Source of the DNA: a virus
Taxonomy: Duplodnaviria; Caudoviricetes
Strand: one strand, 5' to 3'
IMG/VR virus record: IMGVR_UViG_3300007960_000032
Coordinates: 1 to 52,866 of that record
DNA length: 52,866 bases
Within the stretch, counting starts at the first letter, position 1. The number at the start of each line of letters is the position of its first letter. The position numbers and the translations under genes are program-made. The notes beneath the pieces were generated by a model, which saw only the letters and a list, made by a program, of their open reading frames with translations, did not search any database and was not told where the DNA came from. Below, piece by piece: positions 13,145 through 52,866 of the stretch.

Positions 13145-14018
13145 ATCTACCTATCAGTTCTTCAGTGCAAAAATCTTTCTGGAAATAGTGGAAGGGGTAA
13201 TGCTGTGCGTATCCGCCTACTACAAAATCAAAGTCGTTGGTTAAAGTCCATCTAACAGAGTTGCGCCAATCCCAGTCTGGTTTCCAACCATTAATAGCAC
13301 CTTTCATGTGGGCAAAGGTTGGATAACTCATTGGCCCGATAGGCTGTTGAGCGATCCCGGTTTGCCGGGCATGGGCATGGTCACTGATGTTATTTCCGCT
13401 GGCCCAGATGGTTCCAGCAATGCCAAATATAACATCAGTATCAGGTGTGTCATAAAAACAATGATCAAGCACCCCATCTCTAAGAGCAGTAAAGTTTTCA
13501 AGAGTCCTGGTTGCAAGATTAAAAAACTCTTTGCTATCCCTGGAATAACGAAAATACATAAAACCGTTATAAACATCAGCCAGATTATTAGCATCAAAAA
13601 ACTTCCTGTAATACCTAGTATTACTTATTTTTCCTTGATAATTTCTCACCTTGGATGTCATTACTACATCACTTGTTCTACAGCCAGCCCACCAATGATC
13701 AATGTTTCTGGGGATCAGCATATCTGATTCTACCTTAAACGTTTCTGTAAAAGGAGTTAAACTCCACGCCTGGCATTCGATTGCGAAAGGATTTTCTTGC
13801 CTGGGCACTTCAATAATATAATCAAATACCCGGCGCTGGGTGTCTGTTAGTGTTTGTGCAGAGTCATGATCTATTACTACTGCAAACTTATTTATAGTGC
13901 AGGTAGCCTTAACACTCAACGCCAGCAAGTATGCTTGATTAACATAGTTAACTGTGTCACTGTTCTGTGCAAATGTTAACCAGCCCTGCGGTTCTACTTT
14001 TTTCTTAAACATCAGCAT
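13122..14018 (-). CDS. Nucleotide-diphospho-sugar transferase-like protein (GT8-like)
   Basis: YVNQAYLLALSVK...FDYIIEV...WSLTPFTETFKVESDML...YNGFMYF; GT8-like TPF.ET..xDxD region with ESD. Confidence 0.65.
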   Translation of the reverse strand: MLMFKKKVEPQGWLTFAQNSDTVNYVNQAYLLALSVKATCTINKFAVVIDHDSAQTLTDTQRRVFDYIIEVPRQENPFAIECQAWSLTPFTETFKVESDMLIPRNIDHWWAGCRTSDVVMTSKVRNYQGKISNTRYYRKFFDANNLADVYNGFMYFRYSRDSKEFFNLATRTLENFTALRDGVLDHCFYDTPDTDVIFGIAGTIWASGNNISDHAHARQTGIAQQPIGPMSYPTFAHMKGAINGWKPDWDWRNSVRWTLTNDFDFVVGGYAQHYPFHYFQKDFCTEELIGRYEQRLGI

Positions 14019-17656: not shown

Positions 17657-17683
17657 TATTTATGCTTGTTAGATATATTTATA
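17657..17683 (-). promoter_or_regulatory. T4-type late promoters (TATAAATA at 17683-17676; CATAAATA at 17664-17657)
   Basis: Exact T4 gp55 consensus TATAAATA upstream of the fibre gene; a gp55 homologue is encoded in the window. Confidence 0.65.
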
Positions 17684-28100: not shown

Positions 28101-31100
28101 TATGGTGGAATACATACGCTTCACCAGCATCTGTAATAACTGTGCTATCAAGGTCAGGTACATCTGCATACGGTGCACCAATAACCAGTGTCTCGCCTGC
28201 TGTGTCTGAATCAATACTAAATCCAAACTCATCTCCTGCCATTGAATCACTGCCAGTAATAGTGTCTACTAGCACATAGTGACTGTTCTGTCTAATTACA
28301 ATGTCCAATCCGTTAGCAGGAGCGGTAGTAAATGTTAGCACTGCACCACTTAGGGTGTAATCTAAATATGGGATATACTGCTTGTCGTCTTCGTCAACAA
28401 CATGAATGCTGTATATGCTACTTGGCGTAAAGCCAAGTGTATAGTTTGTTTCTGATCCAGTACCAGCAACTGTTTCTGTGTATTCATTGTCTGTGCCAAC
28501 ATTAACCAATGTGTAGCAATAAACAGTGTTTGTGCCTGGTGCTGTTGCAAACAAGTATCTATCGTTTTTACTAATAGCTACCTTAAAGCCAAACTTATCT
28601 GCGCCTGCGGGACTAGCAATTCTTAAATTCTGTTTGATCTCATAAAGTCCACTGGGTGATCTCTTGTAAATTACAACAAATCCCTGACTGCTATCACTAG
28701 CCGGCGCCCCTACTGCTAACCATACATTACCAGCAGCAACTGAAGTACCAAATTCAGATATATCGTTACCAATAGTCACTGGCACTAGCGTAGAAGCAGG
28801 ATTATAAATTCCATTTTCGTCTTTTAAGTATGGATAAACAACACCATTGCCCTGGTTTGGTGCACCAGAAACAACTGATAGTTCGTCATCAGCAACAGCA
28901 ATACTATAACCATTGTTGGCATTGCCAGAACTTTCAATGTTGTAGATTAGTTTGTCAAAATCCCAGGGCTCTTGTTTTTTAAACGCTGCCCAGTTCTGAT
29001 TTTCATCGTAGTCAATCCATACAATTTCGTTTTCATCCCAGCCATAAAGCGGAGTAGTATCAGCAATACTTGATAGATTGGTGAAGCGTGAGCTTACTAG
29101 TTTAAAAATAGGTAACCTAAGATTTGTTATATCATCTATTTCTAGTTCACCAACACTTATGTTAAATGTTCTAGGCGAGTCAACACTGTCAACAAACTTA
29201 AATCCACGCACAACTTGGTTACTTGTTTTAATAAGAACAATGTCGTTCTCAACAAGTCCGTGGTTAGCAGTAGTTGTTAGTGTGATAAACCCATTTGCGT
29301 CTTGCTTTGCTTCGCTGACTTCCACACCAATTTCTGTAACTCTGTATACATTCCAATCAAAGTCGTTCTTGGCTGTCCAAATTGTTGCGCCGCGACCAAT
29401 GCGATCTATGTTAGCATCAAGTGACGCAATATTGTTTAAATCAAATAATGTGTAATTTACGTCATCAAGTCTTGGATGTCCGGCACCAACAATGTCTGTT
29501 TTCTTAGCATTTGTGTCTCTGGTAAGGAAGATGTTTTTGCTAAAGTTGTTGGGTAACTTATGGATATCCTTCTTTTTAAATGTATAATAATCTGAATCTG
29601 CTGTGTCGCCGTTATCTAACAGTTGAACCACTGTTTGATTTTCCTGTGCACGAGCTTCATCAATGATTAGTTCAATGACCTGATTACTGTCAATGCTGCC
29701 GTATTCGCCAACTCTGAAGCCCCACTCTTCGTAGAAGTTAATTTCTTGATCTAAGTTATTGAGATCAGCACCAATTAATTTGTCAATAGCGTTGGGTGTG
29801 CCCTTGGTCTTAATCATGCCCTGATAGAACTTGACCTGACTAACGTCATCCAATCCAAGTTGATCCAGGTAATCTCTTTTTCTAAATCCAATCTGTCCTT
29901 TGGCTGCAATATCAACACTATCTTCAAGATTACTTTCATTAAAGTCATAGAACTTGTTGAATCTATCAGCTTTTTGTGTTAAGTTTGGCAACATGCCAGT
30001 CTTCATGTCATCCACTGGGCGCCAGTCTTTGAAGTCAAACTTAGACTTTCCTTCGTGATTATCTTTTGCAACATATAATTTTGTGTTGTGACTTACTACA
30101 TCAGCTTTTTTATAATCAGTGTTTTGATGCCAAATGTCAAAATTATTTCTGTTAATAATAAATCCAGGAGCGTGTAATGTGCCATTCCAACCACCTGACT
30201 TAGAGCCAATAAATTTAACTCGGGCCTGTCTGTTTCCTAGTTCAGGCTGATAAATGATGTCATTAAAGATTGTTGTGTTGTCTAACACAATGTAATGTTC
30301 GTATTGGATTGGATCAACTTGTGCTGCATAAAGATAGTTTTTACTGTCATCAACTGTGATAGTAGTTCTGTTGTCAATTCTTTCTACATTATATTGTGTT
30401 GCTCTAATTGCTTCACCATCAGTATTTTTAAGTGATCCGGTTTTACTTAAATCATCGATAGTGGTTAATGCTCTGTCGACCACCAGTGTTTCATAAGCAG
30501 GACTTGCACCAAACACTGAGTTATTGCCCCAGCCTTGCTGTGTCCAGAACAAGAATTCTGAAACAGTGTTCTCAAAGTCAACTGTACTGCCAGCACTGTT
30601 AACAGTTTCAAATTTAAATCCTTTAACTTTTAAATATCTTGAATAAGCAACTAGGAAGTCGCAAACCTGTTGAACACTAGAAATAACAGTGCCATAAGGA
30701 ATGCTTGTAATATAGTTTTGACTGTCTGCATAAACTACTGTGCTAGTATTTCCCACTGTAATTATTGTTTGCTTGTCACTGCGAAGACTAGGAACAATTT
30801 TAAAGAAAGGATTCTTTGAATCATAACCGCGTATCTCGTACCCAAGCGGTCTTTTAATAATACTCACACCACTGTAAAATACTCGCTCCAGTGGGGTACT
30901 CTTATTAAGATAAATCTTCATGTTTTCGTCTGGAATAAAGATATTATTGCCAGTGCTTGATGGGCTAGTAGACTCAATGATCATCTTGGACAATGATAAG
31001 TCAGTAAAGCCTCCAACAGGATACATTAGTTTAAGTTTTAGATTTTGTACTGTTGACTTTAAAGTTTCTAGACTTAAATTCTTGTACTTGTAGAAATTAG

Positions 31101-34100
31101 CAATAAACTGGTTATACCCTTCAACTCTATCAACAGTTGTTGAGTTCGCAGAAGTCAATCCGTTAACTTTAAAGTCAGCAATATTAGGTCTATAGCTCTT
31201 GTAACGACGAAGAATTTGATCATACTCTGCACTATACTCAAATAGATTGGTATCCCAGAGCAAGGTCATGTACTTGGCTGGACGTTTTAGAGCAGCAATA
31301 ATCTGCATTGCAAACGGCCACTCGCTGCTTCGTCTCCAAGCTGTTTCTACAGGAGCATAATCACCAATTCTCCAACTTCTTTCTGTGTTAGTGGATAGCG
31401 CACCTTTAGTTAAAAACTGGTTAGGAGCAAGAAGTTGGCCTTGTTCGTTGGTTGGAATAATGTTTGTTAAGCCAGGGCGCACACGATATGGATCAACAGT
31501 AAATGTTGCGTTTCTTCCTGCTGCATTATAAATTTTACCAGCTTCTAGGTCTTCCCAGAGAACACGGTTACCGCGAGTATATGGCGCGGCACCATAGCGT
31601 TGATCCCACCAGTCTGGCTTCTGATAAATGCCCAGCATTTCCCAGGGAGTTAGATGCGGTGTTTCAGTGTCATAAATCCACTTGTAAATGCCTCTCCAGA
31701 ACCCTGGCATACGTGAGTCGCTGTCAACAGTAGTGGCATTACTGTAATTCCAGGTAAAAGAATTATTCACTTCATGAATAGTGTTTGTAGTAATATCTAC
31801 AGCATTTTTATATGCCCAACTTGAAATGTATTGTGCATAAATCTGTGTTGTTTGCTCTAGGTCAGCAAAAGTGCTTCTGAAATAACCCGGAACTACTTCA
31901 GCAAGATCAAATGTAGCTGGATCATACTGAGTTTTTATGTTGTTATACACACGCTTTTCAAACTCAATTAATATGTTATCTCTGCGATCCTTATACGCAA
32001 TCCAGCGACTGCCGTCATGACCCTGGATAACAGGAGTATAGTTTGCATATTCAGTATATGCATCACTGTTCACTGCACCGTGGCTCTGTGTAGATGCTGG
32101 CATATAAAATAATCTGTCACTGCCTACAAACTTATGTGGATGAGCTTCACCACTAACGTCTGCTGCTTGCGCAGAAGCTAATGTTGTGTATAATGGATAA
32201 AACCAACCACTAACCCCTTGTGCTCGCTGTTCATATCTTGAATCTGCGGTAGCATACAATTTAAACGGACCAGTGCCAGTGCTTGTACCAGTCTGGTAAG
32301 TGTCATCAAGCGTAATAGCAGGTTGGAACTTAGGGTATAAACCCATCTTTGTGGGTGTTGGTGGAACAAAACTACCATCCGTATTTGAGTATTCGATAAT
32401 CTCAATGATGTCACCAATAGATAAAGAGACCGCTGTGTTTAGTGTAACAGCAGGCTCAACAGTATCAAAAGTATAATCAAGACCCTCGGTTAATTGTGTC
32501 TTGTTTGTATTGCTCTCTGTAAGGTAAACGATAACACCACGATTACTAATTTCTGTTAAGTCGAACTGAGTGGTGAACTCAAACACTCGTTCAGTTGTTT
32601 GATCTAATGTGTATGTTGTAGTCGATGTCTGACTTCCCCAGGGCAACATATCGGAATAGTAGAAAGGAAACTCACTGGTTTTTACGCCAGCCATAAATGT
32701 TAGGATAGTGTCTAGTGCAGTCTCTGGACTTCTTAAATCAATGTCAAGTTGATTAACATTGTCAATCAATCTATTCTTAAATCTGGTATATTCCTCCATG
32801 CTAAATCTCATGGACTCAATCAAGTTATTGCTTTCCTGAGCTAGCAAGAAGTGCGGAAGAGTTACACCAGCACTGTGCTGCTGAATCTTTCCAGGATATT
32901 TTTTATAGTCAAGATCTCTTGCATTGTTTGTACCCAGGCTGTTTCCAGTAAAGGTTGGAATTTCTCTGGTAATATCAACAAAGTGATTTCGTAATTGTCC
33001 TAGTGTTAGACTAGCAAAGTCATCATTGTTAGCATTGTTCTCAAGGTTTGCAGGAGTTTCATAAAACCCCAGTGGTGTTATACTGTCGCTGTAAACTCTA
33101 ATAAGAACAACGTCATCCTGTGCAAGTGGTGCGATAAAGCTAATGTAATATTTGTCATTGGTTGTTAGTTGTACATACTTGTCAGTGGTTTGGAACACCC
33201 CGTTAACGAACACTTTTAATGTTACTTGGTTGACATCTGTTTTAGGCTGGGCGCCAATTTCAAAACTGTATAGTTCAGCATCAACAATGTATTGTACTTG
33301 CTGCCATTGTCTGCTTTCGCTGATTACTTTTGTCCACCCGTTCTTGAGTTCCCTGGTAACAACACCAGCAATCTCAGTATTTCTATGAACATGACCACTT
33401 CTAATAATAACATCTACAGCACCAACGTCACTCTTTGTGTAAGTGAAAGTATCAGTAACATAGTTATTATCAAACAATATGTCGCCAACATTGTTGATGT
33501 TTTTATAACTTAGTCCAAATCCCAATATAGTGTCTGCGCTAGCGGCTGTGTTTTTCTTATAACTAAACAATTTGCTACCAGCAAATGCAGTACTTGGATA
33601 CTTGGTTGTATCACTAAAACTAACATGCTGTGGATCAAATATATCAAACAATGGCTCTTGGTTAACAGATGTTTTTTGTTGCGCTGTAGTCCAAGAATTA
33701 GTTAAACTAGTGTAGTAATATACCTTGCCCTGATTATTTCCACCTAAAGTGCTTAGTAGACAATCGCCGTCCCCTACTGTACCAACAAGTGTTAGGTTGA
33801 TGATTGGATCAGTCTGTGTGTCGCTATCCTGATCAATATAACTTACCTGGTAAATGTTCTGTTTGATGTCTGGGTCAGCCGTAAAGCAAATAGTTAACCC
33901 TGGTGTTAAATTAACGCCGTCTGAAAAATATCCGATCTTGCCATTAACGTTACTAAATGCGTCTGTTTGTGTTGTATCTACAACGCTAACCGGAGTTTGA
34001 CTGGTAACGCCCATGTTGAAAAGTTTTAACCCAGCATCAAATTCGATGATAGGACGTTTTGCACGTTGATTGTCGTCAATAACTGTAGTAAAATTATTGT

Positions 34101-35847
34101 AAGCGGCAGTTGCTGTAAGAACTGAACGGTGGAACCAACGGTTGCCGCGGCTCCAAGCATTTAAGTCTGGGCTTGCACGGTTAATAACAATATAATCCTG
34201 TGTTATTGGACTGTTTAATGATGCTTCAAATCCACCAACATCAAAGTTCTCTGAATCATAGGGTTCTACTTCACTAATCGCATATGTTTCTGGTGTCACC
34301 AAGGAGGTTTCAGCAACAAGTCTAATACTAGTTCCTACACCCTCAACATAGTAAATATTATTTTGATAACTTGCCGGGGTAACACTTGAGTCAAACTCAA
34401 TTTTAAGGCCATTAGTGAACACTACACCATTAGGACTGGTGTATGTTGACATGCCAATTATTTCCTGATCAACATCAATAGTAGTGCTTGCGCCTTGATC
34501 TACTAGAAGAATTCTACCAAATCTAGTTGCATCCTGGCCATCCTGATAAAAGAACTCAGTTTGACTAGCAGTAATATGTGGAATTAGCTCAAGTTGTCCG
34601 CTTGCATTTTTCCAGAGTTCGCGGTTAGCGTAAACACTACCCTGTTTAACTTTTACTTTGTTGCCTGATGTAATATCTTGAATTTTACTTAATACAATAG
34701 TTTCAACACCAGCAATAGTTTGGATTGCAATTTTAAAAACACTGTATCTGTCAGCAAGTGATAATGACACTGTTGGGTCAAATGTTCCATCGCTGCCTTC
34801 AGTAGCACCGCTATCAAATGCGTGACCATCATAAGGTGCGCCAGCATTCCAGTCTCTTTCGTCTAAACTCTGGTTAGCAAACACCAGTGTTTTACCATCG
34901 AATTCTGTTAATCCGTCGAGTCCAGTTGAGTATGTCGCTAGGAAAGCACTCAATACCTGATTGTGAATATCTTTGTATGGCAAATCTGTAGCAAAATCAA
35001 CTTCTGCGTCAACAGTCATACTTGTAAAGCGGTCCTGGTCGTCTGCTAGTGGCACACGCCAAGTAACAGTTCCGTCGTCCTCGCCATTATTAACTACTCC
35101 GATAACATCTCTGGTGCTGATATTTTTCTGTGATACGCTTACACCAGAATTTCCTGATTCAGTTTGAATCCAAAAAGGTATACCAGGCTGATCAACTTTA
35201 AATGTATATTCACCGCCGCGAGCCAAGTATAAAACTGGGTTAGGAGTAGAGCTAGCATCATCAAACCTATAATTAAATCCACCAGTGTTGGCTGCGTCTG
35301 TTCTCTCGTCGTACTTGCTTTCGTCATATGCTGTAGTGTCGTATGCAATTTGACCGTAGGTTGTTCCTTCTCTAAGTACCGTAAAGTCTTGAGTTGTATC
35401 AACTTCGTTTGCAAAAACCTGAACACTATCTGGACCACTGGGCAACCAAAAATATTCGCCATAGTTAATTAACTTGTCTAAATCAACAAACCCACTCCAG
35501 TTGTAATACTGCTGTCTATAAAGACTGTCTTGGTTTGCAGTGGATCCGTTGTTGTATCTAATAGTATTGAGTGCGTCATTAATACTGCTCACACTCTGAA
35601 TAGTACCATTGACATCTTCATATACCACACCGGGCTCAAGCTGGTAGTTCTGTCTGAACGCTGAAGATTCAACTAGATAGTTGTCACCCTTTTGAAAGTT
35701 TTCAGCACTCTTCCTGCCAATAAAGCCATTGACTTTTATTTTATTGTCTTCGCTGATTAATTGGTCAACTGTGGCATTTAAAAATTTAGAGTTTTTACTG
35801 GTACGGAATACTTCAGGTAATAACTGTTGCGCTTTTCTTGTAGCCAT
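22168..35847 (-). CDS. Giant (4559 aa) baseplate wedge/structural protein with FG-GAP-like beta-propeller repeats
   Basis: Uninterrupted 13.7 kb ORF coupled to the gp6-like gene (TAATG). Multiple FG.SV...L.VGAP repeats, EVKPYHT motif, G.G(F/Y)T..P.IT repeats. Position is equivalent to T4 gp7. Confidence 0.8.
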   Translation of the reverse strand: MATRKAQQLLPEVFRTSKNSKFLNATVDQLISEDNKIKVNGFIGRKSAENFQKGDNYLVESSAFRQNYQLEPGVVYEDVNGTIQSVSSINDALNTIRYNNGSTANQDSLYRQQYYNWSGFVDLDKLINYGEYFWLPSGPDSVQVFANEVDTTQDFTVLREGTTYGQIAYDTTAYDESKYDERTDAANTGGFNYRFDDASSTPNPVLYLARGGEYTFKVDQPGIPFWIQTESGNSGVSVSQKNISTRDVIGVVNNGEDDGTVTWRVPLADDQDRFTSMTVDAEVDFATDLPYKDIHNQVLSAFLATYSTGLDGLTEFDGKTLVFANQSLDERDWNAGAPYDGHAFDSGATEGSDGTFDPTVSLSLADRYSVFKIAIQTIAGVETIVLSKIQDITSGNKVKVKQGSVYANRELWKNASGQLELIPHITASQTEFFYQDGQDATRFGRILLVDQGASTTIDVDQEIIGMSTYTSPNGVVFTNGLKIEFDSSVTPASYQNNIYYVEGVGTSIRLVAETSLVTPETYAISEVEPYDSENFDVGGFEASLNSPITQDYIVINRASPDLNAWSRGNRWFHRSVLTATAAYNNFTTVIDDNQRAKRPIIEFDAGLKLFNMGVTSQTPVSVVDTTQTDAFSNVNGKIGYFSDGVNLTPGLTICFTADPDIKQNIYQVSYIDQDSDTQTDPIINLTLVGTVGDGDCLLSTLGGNNQGKVYYYTSLTNSWTTAQQKTSVNQEPLFDIFDPQHVSFSDTTKYPSTAFAGSKLFSYKKNTAASADTILGFGLSYKNINNVGDILFDNNYVTDTFTYTKSDVGAVDVIIRSGHVHRNTEIAGVVTRELKNGWTKVISESRQWQQVQYIVDAELYSFEIGAQPKTDVNQVTLKVFVNGVFQTTDKYVQLTTNDKYYISFIAPLAQDDVVLIRVYSDSITPLGFYETPANLENNANNDDFASLTLGQLRNHFVDITREIPTFTGNSLGTNNARDLDYKKYPGKIQQHSAGVTLPHFLLAQESNNLIESMRFSMEEYTRFKNRLIDNVNQLDIDLRSPETALDTILTFMAGVKTSEFPFYYSDMLPWGSQTSTTTYTLDQTTERVFEFTTQFDLTEISNRGVIVYLTESNTNKTQLTEGLDYTFDTVEPAVTLNTAVSLSIGDIIEIIEYSNTDGSFVPPTPTKMGLYPKFQPAITLDDTYQTGTSTGTGPFKLYATADSRYEQRAQGVSGWFYPLYTTLASAQAADVSGEAHPHKFVGSDRLFYMPASTQSHGAVNSDAYTEYANYTPVIQGHDGSRWIAYKDRRDNILIEFEKRVYNNIKTQYDPATFDLAEVVPGYFRSTFADLEQTTQIYAQYISSWAYKNAVDITTNTIHEVNNSFTWNYSNATTVDSDSRMPGFWRGIYKWIYDTETPHLTPWEMLGIYQKPDWWDQRYGAAPYTRGNRVLWEDLEAGKIYNAAGRNATFTVDPYRVRPGLTNIIPTNEQGQLLAPNQFLTKGALSTNTERSWRIGDYAPVETAWRRSSEWPFAMQIIAALKRPAKYMTLLWDTNLFEYSAEYDQILRRYKSYRPNIADFKVNGLTSANSTTVDRVEGYNQFIANFYKYKNLSLETLKSTVQNLKLKLMYPVGGFTDLSLSKMIIESTSPSSTGNNIFIPDENMKIYLNKSTPLERVFYSGVSIIKRPLGYEIRGYDSKNPFFKIVPSLRSDKQTIITVGNTSTVVYADSQNYITSIPYGTVISSVQQVCDFLVAYSRYLKVKGFKFETVNSAGSTVDFENTVSEFLFWTQQGWGNNSVFGASPAYETLVVDRALTTIDDLSKTGSLKNTDGEAIRATQYNVERIDNRTTITVDDSKNYLYAAQVDPIQYEHYIVLDNTTIFNDIIYQPELGNRQARVKFIGSKSGGWNGTLHAPGFIINRNNFDIWHQNTDYKKADVVSHNTKLYVAKDNHEGKSKFDFKDWRPVDDMKTGMLPNLTQKADRFNKFYDFNESNLEDSVDIAAKGQIGFRKRDYLDQLGLDDVSQVKFYQGMIKTKGTPNAIDKLIGADLNNLDQEINFYEEWGFRVGEYGSIDSNQVIELIIDEARAQENQTVVQLLDNGDTADSDYYTFKKKDIHKLPNNFSKNIFLTRDTNAKKTDIVGAGHPRLDDVNYTLFDLNNIASLDANIDRIGRGATIWTAKNDFDWNVYRVTEIGVEVSEAKQDANGFITLTTTANHGLVENDIVLIKTSNQVVRGFKFVDSVDSPRTFNISVGELEIDDITNLRLPIFKLVSSRFTNLSSIADTTPLYGWDENEIVWIDYDENQNWAAFKKQEPWDFDKLIYNIESSGNANNGYSIAVADDELSVVSGAPNQGNGVVYPYLKDENGIYNPASTLVPVTIGNDISEFGTSVAAGNVWLAVGAPASDSSQGFVVIYKRSPSGLYEIKQNLRIASPAGADKFGFKVAISKNDRYLFATAPGTNTVYCYTLVNVGTDNEYTETVAGTGSETNYTLGFTPSSIYSIHVVDEDDKQYIPYLDYTLSGAVLTFTTAPANGLDIVIRQNSHYVLVDTITGSDSMAGDEFGFSIDSDTAGETLVIGAPYADVPDLDSTVITDAGEAYVFHHIAEKFTANGTDYQFTTSNTLPSNFYVEVDGVEQVATSGSFGGFDSDSSANRYTVSGNTISFRYIPTSGSVVKIYTGNFVEMQRLNQLSTGNQPTDNENFGYSVGIDAYGAIVAVGGPGEDELNPNTGSASIFIDEGLRFGSVTTASTDASTFSAQFDSIFIDDYEITIALNDSADATTLAGEINNAAITTVSAVAVGTTNLTITGSAGVVNKKLKVRPGTGTTFQTLAQVEPFKFTQKINHPLLAENENFGRVIAFDKHIPINAVAEQRMVISSDRASTELRMGMDRDTVTTSSTYNEFTTTFDADSTKFIDRVTQSGAAYIYDLLDSSATPGVPQSIANPPKFAFGQQMQNTQIDELDQFGGSMVLSRTKLFVGSPTDDVWASNAGSFYYFQNTNNDSTWLKTRVQTPKVDPTVINRIVTYNKVNNEIIDFVDTVDIFKNKLPGLAQQELDYILPIDPATYNVSSTPDAVTFSQTGGWNNEKIGRVWWDLSTCRVIEYEQGDIDYRVQHWNQFFPGSSIDIYEWTESDVPPSQHTDSGLPGTPKFTDDSNYSTSLRYNSSTNTTVTKYYYWVTGLNGFPNDERRQLSTESVRQLIENPISTGGKYLSIVAQNTFVLNNMVDSFADKNTVVSINYDVVKNEGILHTEFDLVSEGDPAQAIPPRIQSKLIDSLAGADLTGAVVPDTTLSIGERYGINTRPRQTMFEDRQQALKTFIDYCNKVFKTTPIARQYTLDTLFLSDPVPTKASGAWDKKVADITTRDFLNKLTFAIGYKVLVNSDSTVGGDWTIYELRATSTGLRYWFLLRVQGYNTSRYWNYSNWYATGFDSTTIPTYTVATEPDLARLTASTNELAKVRSNDDGNFSFFQYTDTGVWQEVIIENGTIELKSTIYDYANAASGSYIGFDSGVFDFEKFDRVPHQEVRNIATAIFTDIFKDNLASKRNELFFRMVEFSMHELHSSGLDWLIKTSFLKVLHKVRNLSQYPTYQLDNSTFIEEFINEVKPYHTNIREYTAKYDGDDQFQGDVTDFDLHAFYDSSTGYFRKYSGDFAGDEVSRTTGNTVDKPWADNYSYYLDSVVIYAAGTGFTDNPVITVSAPDLESGTQATVTAVTNGDSIIRVRVTNKGSGYTKTPTITVKGNGTGLRLLPRIKNDTIREFDTTIKFDRITYSSTVLDWAANTAYNYLDLVSYNNPNTGKQDVYQVNVSGGFTSGTTFSVEDTTGAVALVVYDGANLASAADRIAAYYAPTAGMIGDDLSLLQSGTDYLGNKVSGIGFDREPGFDEASFDNLGFDDFDVDANGLTVLSGASALDTTISSTFTDIALGTRPEDINVDGGGFVDVYSSHAPEEVVPGIVFDNLDMEVYTDPSDDYAGDGNSFTTVSRVYTASGTQQTFSYAGSAQRDLVDYLVVYTGSTRVYDFTADYENRTVSLSSAPAANTNVYIYGYGVTGEKITYEQTFIGDASTVQFTLGINYTRYTQSLVLRDGISVAHTITDGTDGRIVLTTNDANPNGSLIHVIISNRAVDKAAFTYGETQEITLTSGTLIYNLTESFTGFSNPRTGNAIVELNGTRLRPANAEYYTLDGSTLAYRTPVTAGETVANVATGDIQVTRIDAATNITYNLLNVQDYTVTSQEDVDSTLYYRINLLSAYNSGDTLIVSVANANEYFINSSNEIRLGSGVIFATNDKLHVTSFNNYDPLRVHTKVYIGTGSQVTQTIDDFDNSGFDSVGFDLLAQGGQAVNKFVLDRIPTNTNNLWVTLDGVRLHAGDYNIDENGRLDLTSQSLTVTSEIIVTHFSERNIEPTVGYRMVNDMLGNYEYFRLCTDGATKLTQEVKPTDTKIYVQDASKLPQPSPNSNKPGVVYVGNERITYWSIDYTNNYITQIRRATNGTRFAGTHLIGTEVYDTTDAQRLPATNTHTQTWYTAGVSTAADGNGIQSATTTNANFLKACEAFVPNYLQEFQSPRYVVDGYVDEGYVADLDL

Positions 35848-39394: not shown

Positions 39395-39402
39395 TATTTA
39401 TA
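39395..39402 (-). promoter_or_regulatory. T4-type late promoter TATAAATA
   Basis: Exact consensus about 20 nt upstream of the gp6-like start, followed by an AGGAAGG RBS. Confidence 0.7.
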
Positions 39403-48267: not shown

Positions 48268-48972
48268 ATGCTTTGGGCTACTGGTTGCAGTCACACATAC
48301 GGCGACGACTTAGACGACAAGTTGTCTGCTTGGCCATACTTGTTGGCAAAAAAACTTGGCATGAGTTGCAATAACAATGCAGTGTCAGGAGGCAGTAACG
48401 AAAGAATACTATACGAATCAGTTAAATCTAACACAAGTGATCTTGCTGTAATTGCATGGACATACAAAGAAAGATTTACTAGATACGACAATTCAAATAA
48501 CTTTCAAATAAACTTTAACCCTGAATTAGCTCACAGTAAGTATAGTGACCTGTATTATTTTAACCAGTACGGAAAATTACACTATGCACATTGGTCTAAT
48601 ACGTTGTATGAATTTAAAATCTGGCTACAACAAATAATAGTATTGCAGAGGTATTTTGAATCTAAGTCACAAAGATACTTAATGTTAAATGCTGCACAAA
48701 ATAACTATAATGCATTTTCATCATCCTGGTTAGAGTTTAACAATAATATTAAAGACCTAGTATGCTTTGATGTTATGAATGACGAGCAACTATACCAAGA
48801 ACACCAAGAAATACAAAAATATATTGCTGAAATTGATATGACATGCTATTATAGTATTAATAATTTCCATATAACTGATCTTCATTCACAATATCCTGTT
48901 GGCGACACTAAGCATTTACTCGATGAGGGTCATCAACATCTGGCAGATAGGCTATACAATTGTTTCAGATAA
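48268..48972 (+). CDS. SGNH/GDSL-fold-like hypothetical protein
   Basis: N-terminal GCSHTYG (GDS-like block I), N.AVSGGSN (block II), C-terminal D..H...GH (block V-like). Confidence 0.6.
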   Translation: MLWATGCSHTYGDDLDDKLSAWPYLLAKKLGMSCNNNAVSGGSNERILYESVKSNTSDLAVIAWTYKERFTRYDNSNNFQINFNPELAHSKYSDLYYFNQYGKLHYAHWSNTLYEFKIWLQQIIVLQRYFESKSQRYLMLNAAQNNYNAFSSSWLEFNNNIKDLVCFDVMNDEQLYQEHQEIQKYIAEIDMTCYYSINNFHITDLHSQYPVGDTKHLLDEGHQHLADRLYNCFR

Positions 48973-50729
48973 ATGCATTATCGGTAAAGAATTTCATGAG
49001 CGTGGGCAATCAGACCCAGGCTGTAGACTTTGACCGTAAAGACTTAACGTTAGTGCTTGGTGCTAATTATGATCAAGGAGGTGATGACTCTGGCGCCAGA
49101 AATGGCACGGGTAAAACCACAATCATCAATGCACTCAGTTATGCTCTTTACGGTCAAGCCTTAACTAACATCAAGAAAGATAACTTAATCAATAAAACCA
49201 ACGGCAAAGGCATGATGGTTACTGTTGATTTTGAAGTTAATGGTGTTGCTTATAGGCTTGAACGTGGACGTAAACCAAACGTCTTAAAATACTTTATTGC
49301 TAATCACGAACAGGAAAGCACTGAGTCACAACAAGGTGATAGTAGAGAGACACAAAAAGAAATTGAACGTATGCTTGGCATGAGCCATGACATGTTTAAA
49401 CACCTCGTCGCTCTAAACACTTACACTCAGCCTTTCCTGAGTTTGGGAGCAAATGATCAACGTGCTATTATAGAGCAGTTGTTGGGCATTACCTTGCTCA
49501 GCGAAAAGGCAGATTCTCTTAAAGAGATGACACGCCAGACTAAGGACTTGATTACCCAAGAAGAGTTTCGTATTAAAGCAGTGGAAGATGCTAACCGTAG
49601 AATTCAGGAGCAGATTGACAGTGCTAAAAAGAGACAGAAGCTCTGGCTACTAAAAAGAGACGAAGATGTTGTAAAACTTAAACAGGGTATCGACGACCTT
49701 GGTCATGTAGACATTGACAGCGAACTTGAAAATCATAAACTACTAGAAGAATTTTATGATAAACTAAAGGCTGTACAGGAAGCTGAACGCTGGATTACTA
49801 GTTTGGACCAGGATGACACAAAACAAACAAAACTAATTGAAAAATTAGACAAGGAAATCCAGTTGTTGTATGAGCACAAGTGTCATGCCTGTGGTCAGGA
49901 TATTCATGATGACAAACAACAGACTATTGTTGACAGTAAAATATCACAGCGCCAGGATGCCAGCAATCATGTTCTTGATAATGACAAGAAGCGTCAGGAA
50001 TATATTGCAGTAATCCAAGAGATTGGCGAAGTTGGTTCAGCACCTACAGTGTTTTATGATACGCTACAGGATGCCTACAATCATCGTACTAGCGTAGACG
50101 CACTTAAAAAAGAACTAGAGCAACGTGAGAATCAGGAAGATCCATACGACGAGCAAATTCAAGAGATGTCAGACACTGGTGTTGAAGAAGTGTCCTGGGA
50201 TACCATTAATGACTTAACTAGTATGCAGGATCACCAGGAGTTCTTGTTGAAGCTATTGACAAATAAAGATAGCTTTATACGTAAACGAATTATTGATCAG
50301 AACCTAGCGTTCTTAAATACTAGACTCACTTATTACTTGAACAAAATGGGCTTGCCACACAGTGTTAAGTTTATGAATGATCTATCTGTAGAGATACAAG
50401 AATTAGGCAGAGACTTGGACTTTGATAACCTGTCACGTGGTGAGCGTAATCGTTTAATTTTAAGTTTAAGCTGGGCATTCCGTGACGTTTGGGAAAGTTT
50501 ATACCATCCTATTAACTTGCTGTTTATTGACGAGGTTGTTGACAGTGGCATGGATGCAAGCGGAGTAGAAAGTGCCCTTGCAGTACTTAAAAAGATGGCA
50601 AGAGATAGAAACAAGAGCGTATGGCTAGTTAGTCACAAGGATGAACTAGCTGGGCGTGTTAATAACTTGATGAAGGTTATCAAGGAAAATGGCTTCACCA
50701 GCTACGACACTGATGTGGAGATGGTATAA
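48960..50729 (+). CDS. 46: Recombination ATPase subunit, gp46/SbcC/Rad50-like
   Basis: Walker A GARNGTGKT, coiled coil with CHAC zinc hook, LSRGE signature, FIDE Walker B, SH switch; TTG start. Confidence 0.95.
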   Translation: MFQINALSVKNFMSVGNQTQAVDFDRKDLTLVLGANYDQGGDDSGARNGTGKTTIINALSYALYGQALTNIKKDNLINKTNGKGMMVTVDFEVNGVAYRLERGRKPNVLKYFIANHEQESTESQQGDSRETQKEIERMLGMSHDMFKHLVALNTYTQPFLSLGANDQRAIIEQLLGITLLSEKADSLKEMTRQTKDLITQEEFRIKAVEDANRRIQEQIDSAKKRQKLWLLKRDEDVVKLKQGIDDLGHVDIDSELENHKLLEEFYDKLKAVQEAERWITSLDQDDTKQTKLIEKLDKEIQLLYEHKCHACGQDIHDDKQQTIVDSKISQRQDASNHVLDNDKKRQEYIAVIQEIGEVGSAPTVFYDTLQDAYNHRTSVDALKKELEQRENQEDPYDEQIQEMSDTGVEEVSWDTINDLTSMQDHQEFLLKLLTNKDSFIRKRIIDQNLAFLNTRLTYYLNKMGLPHSVKFMNDLSVEIQELGRDLDFDNLSRGERNRLILSLSWAFRDVWESLYHPINLLFIDEVVDSGMDASGVESALAVLKKMARDRNKSVWLVSHKDELAGRVNNLMKVIKENGFTSYDTDVEMV

Positions 50730-50775
50730 TTCAGATTATCCAGATTAAAATAACAGATAGCATATATACTAGACG

Positions 50776-51231
50776 ATGACAAACTGGATAAAGTCTGACG
50801 GCGTATCACTAAACGAAATTACAGTATTGCCTGAAGACTGTGTAGGTTTTGTATACCTTATTACGAATACTAAATCTAATAGAAAATATATCGGAAAAAA
50901 ACTTGCAAAATTTGCAAAAACCAAGTATCGTATAGTTAAGTTAAAGAATGGCACAAAGAAAAGAAAAAAAATAAAAGAGAAAATAGACTCAGATTGGCAA
51001 ACATATTACGGCTCATCTAATGAATTATTGGCAGACATCGAAGCACTCGGCAAAAGCTGCTTTACCCGTGAAATACTCTACTATTGTTACAGCAAGGCAG
51101 AGTGTAGTTACTTAGAAGCAAGAGAACAGTTTAGGCACAAAGTATTAGAATCAGACGACTGGTATAACGGACAAATAAGAGTTAGAGTCCACCAAAGCCA
51201 GCACGTCATTAACGAAGCAAATCAAGACTAA
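50776..51231 (+). CDS. Minimal GIY-YIG family endonuclease
   Basis: GFVYLITN...RKYIGKK, YYGSS, F.REIL, E, YN; basic insert KFAKTKYRIVKLKNGTKKRKK; no appended DNA-binding repeats. Confidence 0.8.
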   Translation: MTNWIKSDGVSLNEITVLPEDCVGFVYLITNTKSNRKYIGKKLAKFAKTKYRIVKLKNGTKKRKKIKEKIDSDWQTYYGSSNELLADIEALGKSCFTREILYYCYSKAECSYLEAREQFRHKVLESDDWYNGQIRVRVHQSQHVINEANQD

Positions 51232-51795
51232 ACAGGCTCACACAGAACCCTCATTATCAGCACATAAGATTGATCCGTCAGTTATTTTGGATTGTGGAAA
51301 ACGCAGGCGCTCCCTGCACACGTACACGTTGTTTCTGTGAACCCTGGGTTCAGCGTAGAATGCTCTGCTGACATTCGAACAACACATATTACTCATAAAA
51401 ACCCCTTAGCAACAGGAACGAAGCGGGGGATAGAATGTAATCATCGTGTTACGTTAATCGCTAATAACGTAACATAAAGCTGACATTAACCAGGTTAATG
51501 TACAGTTTATAGTACATTTGATGTCGATGTAGGTTGGGAAAGGTCAGAGCCCAATGAGTAGTGTAAAATACCTACTTCCAATGTCTTGGCTGTGACATCT
51601 CACATGAAGTCAGAAAAGACGGAACCCTAAAACAGGTTCCGTCTGACTGAAACTATCTACATGAAGTATTCATCTATCATATAATATCACGATAAAATAT
51701 CTTATAATTACAGTAATTAAGACCTGGGAAATGGATTAGTAATAAGAAAAAGTAACACGAACGACAGTGAAGTGTTAGATGAACGTAGTTCATCT
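51232..51795 (+). ncRNA. Candidate large structured non-coding RNA (or structured DNA element); boundaries and strand uncertain
   Basis: No credible ORF; at least ten local stems plus long-range and crossing pairings visible by eye (see findings). Confidence 0.5.
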
Positions 51796-51807
51796 CCTTA
51801 GTATCGG

Positions 51808-51835
51808 TTGACAGATAAATTTAACGTATTATAAT
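51808..51835 (+). promoter_or_regulatory. Sigma70-type promoter
   Basis: TTGACA (51808-51813), 16 nt, TATAAT (51830-51835); both hexamers are consensus. Confidence 0.7.
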
Positions 51836-51889
51836 AGTTTATACAAGAGTTTAAATATTCGACCACATTGTGTGGTGGAGGAAAACTTT

Positions 51890-52066
51890 ATGACAAACAA
51901 ATATGTAGTAGTAAGAGAAAAAGATGTTATGAATGCCAACTCAGAATCTGAGGCAAGTGAAATTATGGCAATTTTAAGTAGTCAACATCCTCAAGACAAA
52001 TATTGTATTTTAGAGGTTCATCCTACAAGACCCAAAGGCATGGGCAGAGATCCGGACTTACATTAA
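51890..52066 (+). CDS. Hypothetical protein (58 aa)
   Basis: GGAGG RBS 8 nt before the ATG at 51890, preferred over the tracked GTG at 51872. Confidence 0.7.
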   Translation: MTNKYVVVREKDVMNANSESEASEIMAILSSQHPQDKYCILEVHPTRPKGMGRDPDLH

Positions 52067-52067
52067 C

Positions 52068-52259
52068 ATGGATAAAAGAAAACAAGTAGAACTAGAAAGT
52101 GCTTTTTTATCATTTTGTAATGTAGCTAATGACCTTGGTTTTGAGTTTACTTATGATAGTAAAATAGAATGTTATCATTCTGGTGAGTCAGCTAATATTA
52201 TGTCTAATAGAGTTAAGTTAGACCCTAAAGAATTTATTAGCACCGATCCAGAAGATTAA
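52068..52259 (+). CDS. Hypothetical protein (63 aa)
   Basis: Starts 1 nt after the upstream stop; its stop overlaps the convergent stop (TTAA). Confidence 0.6.
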   Translation: MDKRKQVELESAFLSFCNVANDLGFEFTYDSKIECYHSGESANIMSNRVKLDPKEFISTDPED

Positions 52260-52474
52260 AAAAAAGGCATTCCTGTTTTCTTTGTAGTTTCCAGGTTTCC
52301 TTCAACTACATCAGTCATTATTGGCATGTCTGATACTCCAAGTTGCATCATCTCGTTTAAAGTTATGCCTCCGCGCATATACCAGCACATTTCAAATATT
52401 CTCTTTTTAATTGTTTTCGCCTCTTGATCCATGCTTTCGAGTTTTTTTACAATCTCAGCATTAGATAAGGTCAA
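52256..52474 (-). CDS. Baseplate hub assembly/tail chaperone second ORF (gp51-like), possibly reached by -1 frameshift
   Basis: CWYMRGGITLNEMMQL motif; TTG start overlapping the upstream stop; in the -1 frame of a T TTT TTC heptamer. Confidence 0.65.
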   Translation of the reverse strand: MTLSNAEIVKKLESMDQEAKTIKKRIFEMCWYMRGGITLNEMMQLGVSDMPIMTDVVEGNLETTKKTGMPFF

Positions 52475-52866
52475 GAGGCTAATGCGAAAAAATTTGATTG
52501 GTCAAATGTAAACGGAGTTTCGTATTCATGCTGGCAATCAGGGCACTTTGCGTTAACTGTTTTATTAGGCATCATCTCGTTAATCTTTGCCTGATGCTTT
52601 TCAATTTTCTCAAAAACTCCACGATCACTGTTGGTAATAAAATCGTCGATAAAACCAATGTTTGATACTCGTGTTCCGTCAGGCATCAAAATATATTCAA
52701 TGCTTCCGATGATATTTTTAACTGTTAAACTTGTCATCTTTTCAAAAATCTCATTAAACTTAGTTTGCTTTTGGTCAGCATCTAAAGTCTGATCATTAAC
52801 CAGAGTTATTAATCTTTGTTGCTCAAACACTTCCAAGTTTGTTGTGTTAGCACTCTTAAACGACTG
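52471..52866 (-). CDS. C-terminal part of a baseplate hub/tail assembly chaperone, T4 gp26-like (5' truncated)
   Basis: Frame open to the window edge; C-terminal CPDC...FD.SNFF typical of gp26-like proteins. Confidence 0.7.
   Translation of the reverse strand, partial: QSFKSANTTNLEVFEQQRLITLVNDQTLDADQKQTKFNEIFEKMTSLTVKNIIGSIEYILMPDGTRVSNIGFIDDFITNSDRGVFEKIEKHQAKINEMMPNKTVNAKCPDCQHEYETPFTFDQSNFFALAS

What the first reader, a model, noticed from the sequence alone, without database searches (positions are those of the whole stretch)
50776..51795. Minimal GIY-YIG nuclease immediately followed by about 560 nt of densely structured non-coding sequence: candidate RNA-associated nuclease system
Seen: the longest non-coding stretch in an otherwise gene-dense window. 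Stems include GCAGG/CCTGC (51303-51317), TGAACC/GGTTCA (51338-51352), GAATG/CATTC (51358-51376) enclosed by GTTGTT/AACAAC (51328/51383), TGTTACGTTA/TAACGTAACA (51447-51474), ACATTAAC/GTTAATGT (51483-51501), TGTGA/TCACA (51591-51604) and AGTCA..GACGGAACC/GGTTCCGTC.TGACT (51608-51648). Long-range TACTCAT (51390-96)/ATGAGTA (51554-60) crosses GTAGGT (51529-34)/ACCTAC (51570-75), which would be a pseudoknot. The adjacent nuclease has only the catalytic domain plus a very basic hairpin-like insert. I see no tRNA, tmRNA, RNase P or group I/II intron consensus. Inference: an undescribed large phage ncRNA, possibly a partner or guide scaffold for the nuclease by analogy to OMEGA/HEARO loci, or an origin-associated transcript.
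Basis: partly seen in the sequence, partly recalled or inferred. Interest (0 to 1): 0.82.

Follow-up and report, generated by a model that had tools for sequence, protein, structure and literature searches.

The report
Large pseudoknotted RNA gene beside phage nuclease
The stretch after the small nuclease gene is a real, large and intricately folded non-coding RNA gene found once per genome in many uncultured aquatic T4-like giant phages; what it does is unknown, and it is probably not a guide for the nuclease.

Summary
Window 51234-51794 (+) encodes no protein. It folds into an RNA whose helices are kept by compensatory changes in 59 non-redundant relatives: 93% of cells paired, 38 of 68 pairs changed on both sides, 0 of 500 shuffles as high.

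No Rfam family matches the window. In sister phages the same locus holds a variant whose 5' domain is the orphan Rfam motif Polynucleobacter-1.

The RNA belongs to a modular family with three domain types. It occurs once per roughly 355-kb phage genome and ends in a module shared by all types: an invariant hairpin flanked by two identical 7-8-nt words that change together between lineages (145 of 149 sequences).

The 151-aa protein is a GIY-YIG nuclease (Pfam PF19835; I-TevI-like fold). Its family is common in phages that lack the RNA, 7 of 82 RNA loci show no such gene, and RNA type does not follow nuclease relatedness.

My reading is an autonomous structured RNA of ribozyme- or RNP-like complexity, with the nuclease as a linked neighbour. 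A guide-RNA role is unlikely. An origin or R-loop role stays open.

The parts
50776..51231 (+). 151-aa GIY-YIG nuclease gene: catalytic domain with a long basic beta-hairpin (residues 45-71) and no separate DNA-binding domain
   Evidence: Pfam PF19835 SegE_GIY-YIG, 3.6e-32. AF2 model pLDDT 87.8. VIA-align: I-TevI catalytic domain, Z 8.5, rmsd 2.5 over 84 aa.
51234..51270 (+). Leader of the RNA. It starts with AGGC just after the stop codon and ends in CACAT-AAG. No promoter-like site lies in front of it.
   Evidence: The leader motif AGGC..CAACACNT-AAGG is conserved upstream of the first hairpin, even where the upstream gene differs. No + strand promoter-like site between 50381 and 51486.
51271..51294 (+). 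Helix 1 hairpin
   Evidence: 6 pairs, 4 with changes on both sides, 99.2% paired.
51303..51317 (+).
   Evidence: 4 of 4 pairs with changes on both sides.
51327..51355 (+). Helix 3, with a variable tip that carries lineage-specific inserts
   Evidence: 7 pairs, 5 with changes on both sides, 96.6% paired.
51358..51376 (+).
   Evidence: 5 of 5 pairs with changes on both sides, 99% paired.
51384..51396 (+). 5' strand of the long-range pseudoknot helix; it pairs with 51554-51564
   Evidence: 7 of 7 core pairs show compensatory change; pair 51385-51563 is CG in 31 sequences and UA in 15.
51404..51429 (+). Helix 6 hairpin. Its loop carries the invariant GGAACGA (51415-51421).
   Evidence: 6 of 7 pairs with changes on both sides. 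GGAACGA is invariant in 59 of 59 sequences.
51434..51518 (+).
   Evidence: Mostly gap columns in A1. The full insert is seen only in the window and L002, with shorter versions in some other sequences.
51524..51579 (+). Near-invariant pseudoknotted core: TCGAT-GTAGGT-TGGGAAAGGTCAGAGCCCA...ACCTACTTCC. It holds helix 7 (51529-33/51571-75), helix 8 (51535-38/51550-53), pseudoknot 51526-28/51543-45, and the 3' strand of the long-range helix (51554-64).
   Evidence: Helices 10-12 are 99.6-100% paired. Pseudoknot: 3 of 3 pairs covary (GAC/GTC, GAT/ATC, GTG/CAC, GCA/TGC, AGC/GCT).
51598..51609 (+). First copy of the word pair (TCTC-ACATGAAG)
   Evidence: 81 of 83 unique type-A loci have an exact repeat of 7 nt or more flanking the hairpin, with 15 different 7-mers; ACTC comes before copy 1 and ATCT before copy 2 in 71 of 81.
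51608..51653 (+). Terminal hairpin (9-bp core 51618-26/51635-43) and the invariant tail GTCTGACTGAAAC
   Evidence: GGTTCCGTCTGACT is invariant in 59 of 59 sequences. The helix is 93.8% paired, with one-sided G-U changes only.
51655..51666 (+). Second copy of the word pair (ATCT-ACATGAAG)
   Evidence: The same layout is found in type B (39 of 40) and type C (25 of 26).
51667..51752 (+). A+T-rich variable spacer (G+C 0.24 in the 100-nt window 51650-51749)
   Evidence: Poorly alignable between relatives.
51753..51794 (+). Two conserved hairpins. The first is a stem, a GA/GAA internal loop, 2 bp and a GNNA loop (51753-77). The second is GATGAAC/GTTCATC (51778-94).
   Evidence: Found in 83 loci with 36 different stem pairs. 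The inner 2 bp covary (GC/GC 58, GT/AC 4, AC/GT 3).
51808..51835 (+). Perfect sigma-70-type promoter (TTGACA-16-TATAAT) for the small downstream ORFs. It marks the end of the RNA unit.
   Evidence: 12 of 12 consensus matches. Conserved in close relatives.

Best explanation
Window 51234-51794 (+ strand) is the gene of a large, autonomous, structured non-coding RNA. The core is about 400 nt and is followed by two accessory hairpins.

Shown:
- 13 helices are kept by compensatory change, among them two pseudoknots.
- Several long stretches are invariant.
- There is no coding signal.
- The RNA reads on the + strand.
- There is one copy per near-complete 355-kb phage genome.
- Three exchangeable domain types occupy the same locus in a clade of uncultured aquatic T4-like giant phages.
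- One type carries the Rfam motif Polynucleobacter-1 as its 5' domain.
- All types share a 3' module: word, invariant hairpin, GACUGAA, then the same word again.

Inferred:
- The RNA is made by read-through of the gp47-gp46-GIY-YIG transcription unit and is then trimmed.
- It acts as a folded RNA in its own right, as a ribozyme or as the scaffold of an RNA-protein particle.
- Its working centre is the invariant pseudoknotted core together with the 3' module.
- The GIY-YIG gene is a linked neighbour, a Seg/DenA-like DNA nuclease sitting at a recombination boundary. This resembles T4 segB inside the tRNA cluster. It is not an RNA-guided partner.

The biochemical activity itself is not known.
For: Structure:
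- 93.0% of 3913 cells are paired, against 81.3% in shuffles.
- 38 of 68 pairs changed on both sides; 0 of 500 shuffles reach either value.
- Slid controls give 31-43% paired and 9-15 such pairs.

Not coding: no codon periodicity (variable fraction 0.67/0.80/0.75), and the longest stop-free stretch ranges from 43 to 133 aa with a median of 74.

Constraint stronger than on the neighbouring gene: the RNA core is 78-84% identical to L134 and L190, where the nuclease protein is only 53-55% identical and barely aligns, or does not align, as DNA.

Spread: 93 unique loci from one capped scan. DNA runs from freshwater, salt marsh, marine and aquatic samples hold it.

Copy number: one place each in G001 (100% complete) and G002 (98% complete).

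Independence from the nuclease.

Same locus as stable RNA genes in a relative: in cyanophage Bellamy the homologous nuclease gene is followed by seven tRNA genes.

Co-transcription hint: a metatranscriptome contig spans 51092-51567.

T4 precedent (abstracts seen in the search listing): segB lies in the tRNA gene cluster and drives its inheritance (PMC2330249), and nuclease genes sit at boundaries of genetic exchange (PMC10448857).
Against: - No activity, partner or discrete RNA ends are shown. The RNA libraries laid were contigs and may contain DNA.
- In two of the four RNA runs, contigs covered the nuclease gene but not the RNA core, so there is no sign of a highly abundant stable RNA.
- The GIY-YIG gene lies within 135 nt upstream in 65 of 82 informative loci and just downstream in 2 more. 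This linkage is tighter than for other neighbours, though all of these loci share one conserved gene order.
- The identical word pair has no explanation under this reading.
Confidence: 0.5

Rival explanations
1. Origin-associated primer or R-loop RNA. The folded transcript holds its first word (51598-51609) so that it pairs with the template DNA strand at the identical second word (51655-51666). This anchors an RNA-DNA hybrid next to the A+T-rich spacer, which then opens and primes replication. It would be a phage counterpart of ColE1 RNA II or of T4 origin R-loops.
For: - It is the only reading here that predicts identity, rather than complementarity, between two words that change together. 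That identity is seen in 145 of 149 sequences, with at least 25 different words.
- No complementary partner exists within the RNA.
- An A+T-rich stretch (G+C 0.24) follows the second word directly.
- There is one copy per genome.
- The locus lies next to the recombination and replication genes gp46/gp47.
- The ColE1 and T4 origin mechanisms are recalled from general knowledge and were not checked here.
Against: - Known T4 origins are not reported to need a folded RNA (recalled).
- Near-invariant pseudoknotted cores are not expected of a mere primer.
- The spacer is short and variable in relatives.
- No replication data exist for these phages.
Confidence: 0.15
2. Cis-acting part of the nuclease mRNA or of the downstream genes: a 3' UTR that sets mRNA stability, processing or termination, or a leader that regulates the genes that follow. 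The latter is what Weinberg et al. 2010 guessed for Polynucleobacter-1.
For: - The RNA lies directly behind the nuclease ORF in 65 of 82 loci.
- A transcriptome contig bridges the ORF and the RNA.
- RNA contigs from three studies stop at 51275, 51282 (followed by adapter sequence) and 51291, inside helix 1. This is a weak hint of an RNA end there.
- Table 1 of PMC2864571 rates Polynucleobacter-1 as 'cis-reg? y'.
Against: - About 400 nt with two pseudoknots and invariant junctions is far more than a terminator or stabiliser needs.
- The RNA occurs without the nuclease gene (7 of 82), behind inserted ORFs (8) or in front of the nuclease gene (2).
- The genes downstream vary, and in the window they have their own perfect promoter.
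- The contig stops coincide with a variable loop, where assemblies tend to break.
Confidence: 0.12
3. RNA partner or guide of the GIY-YIG nuclease. The RNA binds the 151-aa enzyme and directs it to DNA through the repeated word.
For: - Tight linkage: 75 of 82 loci have the gene beside the RNA, and the pairing is kept even where the order is reversed (L233, L164).
- The enzyme has no separate DNA-binding domain.
- A short variable word sits next to an invariant scaffold.
Against: - The whole protein family, basic hairpin included, occurs in phages without the RNA.
- RNA type does not follow nuclease relatedness: DNA similarity to L005 and L008 stops exactly at the stop codon 51231.
- The word is only 7-12 nt long and semi-conserved (RSAURAW), unlike guides of 16 nt or more.
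- 7 loci lack the gene.
- Rfam HEARO and other omega-RNA models do not match.
Confidence: 0.08
4. Self-processing or mobile insert. The hairpin between the two words would be an intron-like or MITE-like element, or a translational-bypass gap, and the words would be its target duplication or its take-off and landing sites.
For: - Identical words flank a palindromic element that ends in AGATT...AATCT.
- The word usually reads codon plus TGA or TAA (72 of 79).
- The 57-nt spacing resembles the 50-nt gap of T4 gene 60 (recalled).
Against: - No open frame leads into the first word: median 15 open codons, 3 in the window.
- The RNA contig that crosses the site is unspliced and no joints were found.
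- The module is present in all three RNA types, so it is ancient, and no empty site was seen.
- The left word is not adjacent to the element's end.
- Rfam intron and ribozyme models are silent.
Confidence: 0.07

Closest known systems
Polynucleobacter-1 RNA motif (Rfam RF01718; Weinberg et al. 2010, PMC2864571)
   Same: It occupies the same genomic slot. In 5 of 10 sister loci scanned it matches at 79-116 bits, directly behind the homologous GIY-YIG gene. Those RNAs share the terminal word-hairpin-word module and the two downstream hairpins with the window's RNA. Both begin with a hairpin that has a GCCA-type loop, followed by UGGAA, a hairpin and ACAC/ACUC (by eye).
   Different: The window gives no RF01718 match even at E = 10. 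The Rfam model covers only 141 nt, whereas the conserved element is about 470 nt in those loci (67 pairs, 50 compensatory, 40 sequences). The published table gives its taxa as Burkholderiales and fresh water/estuary and rates it as probably cis-regulatory. Its supplementary text could not be read.
T4 tRNA and stable-RNA cluster with the GIY-YIG homing endonuclease SegB (PMC2330249, abstract in listing)
   Same: A Seg-type GIY-YIG gene is embedded beside phage RNA genes. A recombination boundary lies at the gene/RNA junction. In cyanophage Bellamy the homologous gene is followed by seven tRNAs.
   Different: The RNA here is not a tRNA. The nuclease lacks the C-terminal DNA-binding part of Seg proteins, and it is conserved in position rather than sporadic.
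OMEGA / HEARO RNA-guided nucleases (IscB, TnpB)
   Same: A small nuclease gene is followed by a large structured RNA.
   Different: - The nuclease fold differs (GIY-YIG, not RuvC/HNH).
- There is no long variable guide.
- No transposon ends were seen.
- The nuclease family exists without the RNA.
- Rfam models do not match.
Large ornate bacterial and phage RNAs of unknown function (GOLLD, ROOL, OLE, raiA; bioRxiv 10.1101/2024.12.08.627333, abstract start seen in listing)
   Same: They are hundreds of nucleotides long, have many covarying helices and pseudoknots, are associated with phages or lakes, and have no known function.
   Different: There is no sequence or structure match to any of their Rfam models. 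This RNA is smaller than GOLLD. The identical word pair has no counterpart that I know of (recalled).
T4 endonuclease II (DenA)
   Same: It is a GIY-YIG enzyme of 144 aa. In T4 it follows nrdB directly, as the homologue of the window's protein does in Melnitz and Bellamy.
   Different: No sequence relation beyond the GIY motif is seen (hhalign probability 0.33). DenA hits PF01541, not PF19835. In the window's clade the gene follows gp46, not nrdB.

Membership tests
Polynucleobacter-1 RNA (RF01718) | Covariance-model score at or above the gathering score (37 bits) | tested here: not met
   No match in window 50000-52866 at E up to 10, and none in the whole window at gathering threshold. Sister loci score 79-116 bits.
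Polynucleobacter-1 RNA (RF01718) | Genomic context shared with members | tested here: met
   In members L022, L010, L048, L058 and L061 the motif starts 25-40 nt (154 nt in L010) after the stop of the homologous GIY-YIG gene. 25 of 80 nuclease loci carry this type.
GIY-YIG nuclease, SegE-type domain (Pfam PF19835) | Profile score above the curated cut-off, plus a GIY-YIG fold | tested here: met
   111.6 bits against a cut-off of 25. The model matches the I-TevI catalytic domain at Z 8.5, PD-T4-3 at Z 7.0 and UvrC N-terminal domain at Z 5.5.
Free-standing homing endonuclease (Seg type) | C-terminal DNA-binding domain after the catalytic domain | tested here: not met
   The protein ends at residue 151. 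The Pfam domain covers residues 18-134 and no second domain is found.
Free-standing homing endonuclease (Seg type) | Sporadic presence among close relatives | tested here: not met
   The gene is present at the same position in nearly all related contigs and in 487 GenBank phage records.
OMEGA/HEARO-type RNA-guided nuclease system | Scaffold RNA with a hypervariable guide of about 16 nt or more at one end | tested here: not met
   The only variable word is 7-12 nt, semi-conserved, and present twice. There is no Rfam HEARO match.
OMEGA/HEARO-type RNA-guided nuclease system | The nuclease always accompanied by its RNA | tested here: not met
   Melnitz, ACP17 and Bellamy homologues lack the RNA. 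15 of 80 close homologue loci show no RNA within at least 1500 nt downstream.
Group I / group II intron | Match to intron covariance models, and interruption of a host gene | tested here: not met
   No Rfam match at E up to 10. The flanking ORFs are complete. No spliced joints were found in RNA contigs.
tRNA / tmRNA | Cloverleaf or tmRNA detected by ARAGORN or Rfam | tested here: not met
   0 genes in the window. No Rfam match.
T4 endonuclease II (DenA) orthologue | Detectable sequence or structure relation to T4 DenA | tested here: inconclusive
   hhalign probability 0.33. No PDB hit by sequence or profile. DenA's structure is not among the listed fold matches, which does not exclude it. The position after nrdB is shared in Melnitz and Bellamy.
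Replication-origin primer RNA (ColE1 RNA II / T4 R-loop type) | Replication starts, or a persistent RNA-DNA hybrid, at the site | not testable with these tools
   Only indirect features are available: identical words, an A+T-rich spacer and single copy.

The most novel reading that the evidence does not exclude
A new class of large phage RNA with ribozyme-grade architecture. Its 3' module works by identity rather than complementarity: the first word in the RNA reads the second word's template DNA, either to seed an R-loop or replication start, or to mark two sites of self-processing. This would give giant T4-like phages an RNA-built origin or processing machine, and it would show that the orphan Polynucleobacter-1 motif is one interchangeable 'head' of that machine.
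Probability: 0.25. Interest if true: 0.9.

Novelty: new variant of a known kind. Interest (0 to 1): 0.72.

Why it matters
Few large natural RNAs with several pseudoknots and invariant junctions are known, and those whose function has been solved are ribozymes or core RNA-protein machines. This one has four points of interest:
- It is widespread. One capped scan gave 93 unique loci, and it occurs in freshwater, marsh and marine DNA.
- It sits in giant (about 355 kb) T4-like phages, which have no cultured representative close to the window. The best matches to cultured phages are 50-52% at protein level.
- It gives an old orphan Rfam motif a genomic home and shows that motif to be one domain of a larger, modular RNA.
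- It carries a word pair that co-varies by identity, which ordinary RNA folding does not explain and which points to an untested mechanism.

The finding also corrects an attractive but weakly founded idea, that a minimal GIY-YIG enzyme is RNA-guided.

Tried and rejected
- **Rfam.** An E-value scan of 50000-52866 and a gathering scan of the whole window found nothing relevant.
- **ARAGORN.** No tRNA or tmRNA.
- **GenBank phages.** blastn of the region found no match.
- **A wasted collection scan.** My gap in the pattern was too short.
- **Raw mutual information.** It was swamped by relatedness.
- **A partner for the repeated word within the RNA.** No column pairs with it consistently. The best candidate is supported by 5 of 14 word types and is already used in another helix.
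- **Extra copies of the word in the window.** At chance level: 4 found, and 8 of 100 shuffles had at least 4.
- **Translational bypass or a small ORF ending at the word.** The word reads codon plus stop in 72 of 79 sequences, but the frame before it is open for a median of 15 codons and for 3 in the window.
- **Coding potential of the region.** None.
- **T4-type late promoter TATAAATA.** 3 sites in the window, none near the RNA.
- **Intrinsic terminator after the RNA.** None on the + strand.
- **DenA orthology.** Not shown.
- **RNA in cellular genomes.** Only 3 of 24 pattern hits are real. At least two of these lie on MAG contigs that carry phage genes.
- **RNA libraries.** No joints between the two words. 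The parts of the RNA not covered in runs X16 and X18 are not evidence of absence.
- **Thermodynamic z-scores.** They do not separate the strands.
- **Supplements.** The supplementary files of PMC2864571, which hold the only detailed text on Polynucleobacter-1, could not be read. They may describe its gene context.
Full report
**What the window is.** The 52,866-base window is a whole IMG/VR viral contig, estimated at 15% of a genome. It is a T4-like myovirus. The ORF at 48960-50729 is the SbcC-like gp46 (phrog_77, 1.7e-101). The contig ends in a baseplate-hub gene on the minus strand. The best cultured matches are distant: gp46 is 50% identical to Pseudomonas phage PA5oct, and the nuclease is 52% identical to Methylophilales phage Melnitz. 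Related contigs reach 354,959 bases with terminal repeats, so the clade consists of giant phages.

**The nuclease.** ORF 50776-51231 (151 aa) matches Pfam PF19835, SegE_GIY-YIG, at 3.6e-32. A model built on 25 homologues (pLDDT 87.8) aligns to the I-TevI catalytic domain (Foldseek probability 0.99, E 0.097; VIA-align Z 8.5, rmsd 2.5 over 84 residues). The Pfam match spans residues 18-134, which include this insert. It therefore belongs to the family as a whole. Homologues from phages without the RNA also match the full-length profile, for example Bellamy at 1.3e-54.

In Melnitz and Bellamy the gene follows nrdA/nrdB. That is the position of denA in T4. However, no sequence relation to T4 DenA beyond the GIY motif was found.

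**Is the RNA real?** The region downstream of the ORF has no conserved reading frame and no codon periodicity.

- A first comparison with 160 related loci, fetched through the nuclease and gp46 proteins, found the region conserved in 15 of them.
It brought the total to 99 profile hits, of which 93 are unique.
- I aligned the window with 58 non-redundant full-length relatives (A1) and wrote a structure from RNAalifold plus pairings seen by eye.
- On that alignment 93.0% of cells pair (shuffles 81.3%), 38 of 68 pairs changed on both sides (shuffles 28.6), and no shuffle in 500 reached either value. Sliding the partners by 1-3 columns gives 31-43% paired and 9-15 such pairs.
- The alignment was not fitted to the structure. 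The structure was, however, partly derived from these same sequences, which favours it somewhat.
- Abundant G-U pairs place the RNA on the + strand, the strand of the nuclease gene.

**Anatomy in window coordinates.**

- A leader runs from 51234.
- Four hairpins follow: 51271-94, 51303-17, 51327-55 and 51358-76.
- The 5' strand of a long-range helix lies at 51384-96.
- A hairpin at 51404-29 presents the invariant GGAACGA.
- A lineage-specific insert occupies 51434-51518.
- A near-invariant core lies at 51524-79. In it GAT (51526-28) pairs into the loop of hairpin 51535-53. That hairpin is nested in helix 51529-33/51571-75, which also encloses the 3' strand of the long-range helix (51554-64).
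- The terminal hairpin lies at 51618-43, with the invariant tail GTCTGACTGAAAC.
- After an A+T-rich spacer come two more conserved hairpins (51753-77 and 51778-94). They were found in 83 loci with 36 different stem pairs.
- A perfect sigma-70-type promoter at 51808-35 then starts the next unit.

**The word pair.** The terminal hairpin is flanked by TCTC-ACATGAAG (51598-609) and ATCT-ACATGAAG (51655-666).

- In 81 of 83 unique type-A loci the two words are identical over at least 7 nt, with 15 different 7-mers. The two exceptions differ at one base.
- The same layout holds in 39 of 40 type-B and 25 of 26 type-C RNAs, with 8 and 6 different words.
- The words therefore change together while staying identical, not complementary.
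- I found no complementary partner in the RNA and no excess of copies in the window.
- Although the word usually reads 'codon plus TGA/TAA', no frame leads into it.
- The segment AGATT before the hairpin can pair either upstream or with AATCT just before the second word (81.8% paired, against 23-43% when slid). This hints at alternative conformations.
- This feature is unexplained. Pairing of the RNA's first word with the template DNA of the second is the only simple model I can offer that demands identity.

**A modular family, and the known motif.**

- Scanning ten related loci against Rfam gave Polynucleobacter-1 (RF01718) in five, at 79-116 bits, directly behind the nuclease gene.
- In those loci the conserved element is about 470 nt. 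In 40 sequences, 67 predicted pairs include 50 with compensatory change. The Rfam motif is therefore only the 5' domain of that element.
- A third type (C) shares its 3' half with type B but has another 5' domain. Some type-A 3' domains carry a type-C-like 5' part.
- Of the 80 closest nuclease loci, 8 carry type A, 25 type B and 18 type C. 15 show none within the 1500 or more bases held downstream, and 14 are too short to tell.
- The only paper in the library that names the motif lists it as probably an RNA, probably cis-regulatory, from Burkholderiales and fresh water or estuary. Its supplements were closed.

**Link to the nuclease.** Among 82 unique RNA loci with enough upstream sequence:

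- the GIY-YIG gene lies 135 nt or less upstream in 65;
- it lies 260-800 nt upstream, behind an inserted ORF, in 8;
- it lies just downstream in 2 (Pfam-confirmed);
- it is not found in 7, one of which is cut at the RNA's end.

All but the odd ones share one gene order: gp47, gp46, variable genes, nuclease, RNA, variable genes, then two minus-strand baseplate genes. Much of the linkage is therefore inherited synteny.

RNA type does not follow the nuclease. L005 and L008 have nucleases 84% identical to the window's. They align with the window up to the stop codon at 51231 and then carry type C. L134 and L190 have nucleases about 53-55% identical, yet their RNA cores are 78-84% identical to the window's. 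There is thus a recombination boundary at the gene/RNA junction. That fits what is reported for phage nuclease genes (PMC10448857) and for T4 segB in the tRNA cluster (PMC2330249); I saw both only as abstracts in the listing.

**Expression.**

- 20 public runs hold the stretch or part of it. 14 DNA runs hold at least 0.69 of its words, and six metatranscriptome runs hold 0.23-0.31.
- Four RNA runs were laid (contigs only, so DNA carry-over cannot be excluded).
- One contig spans 51092-51567, bridging the nuclease ORF and the RNA.
- One contig, from a relative without the window's insert, runs from 51520 to 52186 straight through both words and the hairpin.
- No joints were found.
- Three contigs from three studies stop at 51275, 51282 (then adapter) and 51291. 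This is a weak hint of an end at helix 1, but the site is also a variable loop where assemblies break.

**Distribution.** There is one copy per genome in the two near-complete genomes searched. In the bacterial and archaeal genome collection, only 3 of 24 pattern hits are real. Two of them lie on contigs of a MAG labelled Neomarinimicrobiota that carry gp47, gp46, the nuclease and the hub gene. Those contigs are phage DNA that was binned into a MAG.

**Verdict.** The RNA is real, larger than a regulatory element needs to be, modular, and widespread.

I judge an autonomous folded RNA with the nuclease as linked neighbour most likely (0.5). The alternatives are an origin or R-loop role (0.15), a cis-acting mRNA element (0.12), a nuclease partner (0.08), and a self-processing or mobile insert (0.07).

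It is not a member of any Rfam family. Its nearest relative is the RNA that contains Polynucleobacter-1.

Noticed in passing
L022:3384-3853, L023:3390-3858, L010:3565-4093 and 37 further loci: The Rfam motif Polynucleobacter-1 (141 nt) is the 5' domain of a conserved RNA of about 470 nt that lies behind the GIY-YIG gene of T4-like phage contigs. The Rfam model and its 'cis-regulatory' label may need revision.
   Followed up: partly
window 22168-35847 (-): A single ORF of 4559 aa, flanked by ORFs of 1037 and 1175 aa, lies in the structural-gene block. It was not examined.
   Followed up: no
window 51808-51835 and 51890-52259 (+): A perfect TTGACA-16-TATAAT promoter drives two small ORFs (58 and 63 aa) with no family match. 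The 63-aa ORF recurs in the closest type-A loci, and the 58-aa ORF recurs in others, sometimes on the other strand.
   Followed up: partly
L303 and L305 (contigs of a MAG titled Candidatus Neomarinimicrobiota, 335 kb and 153 kb): These contigs carry gp47, gp46, the GIY-YIG gene, the RNA and baseplate-hub genes. They look like giant-phage DNA binned into a bacterial MAG.
   Followed up: partly
L282 (Synechococcus phage Bellamy) 2596-4214: The homologous GIY-YIG gene follows nrdA/nrdB and is followed by seven tRNA genes. The slot behind this nuclease gene is therefore an RNA-gene site in cyanophages too.
   Followed up: partly
L082:4089-4360, L110:10173-10440 (also L230, L235): A short inserted ORF with a Cys-x2-Cys...Gly-Gly-Lys-Phe motif sits between the nuclease gene and the RNA in some relatives.
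   Followed up: no
window 13889-13896, 17676-17683, 39395-39402 (-): The T4-type late-promoter word TATAAATA occurs three times, all on the minus strand (the strand of the structural genes). This is no more than chance predicts.
   Followed up: no
window 51656-51685 (+): A promoter-like site (TCTACA-18-TATAAT, 10 of 12 matches) overlaps the second word and the A+T-rich spacer. It could start a transcript of the two downstream hairpins.
   Followed up: no
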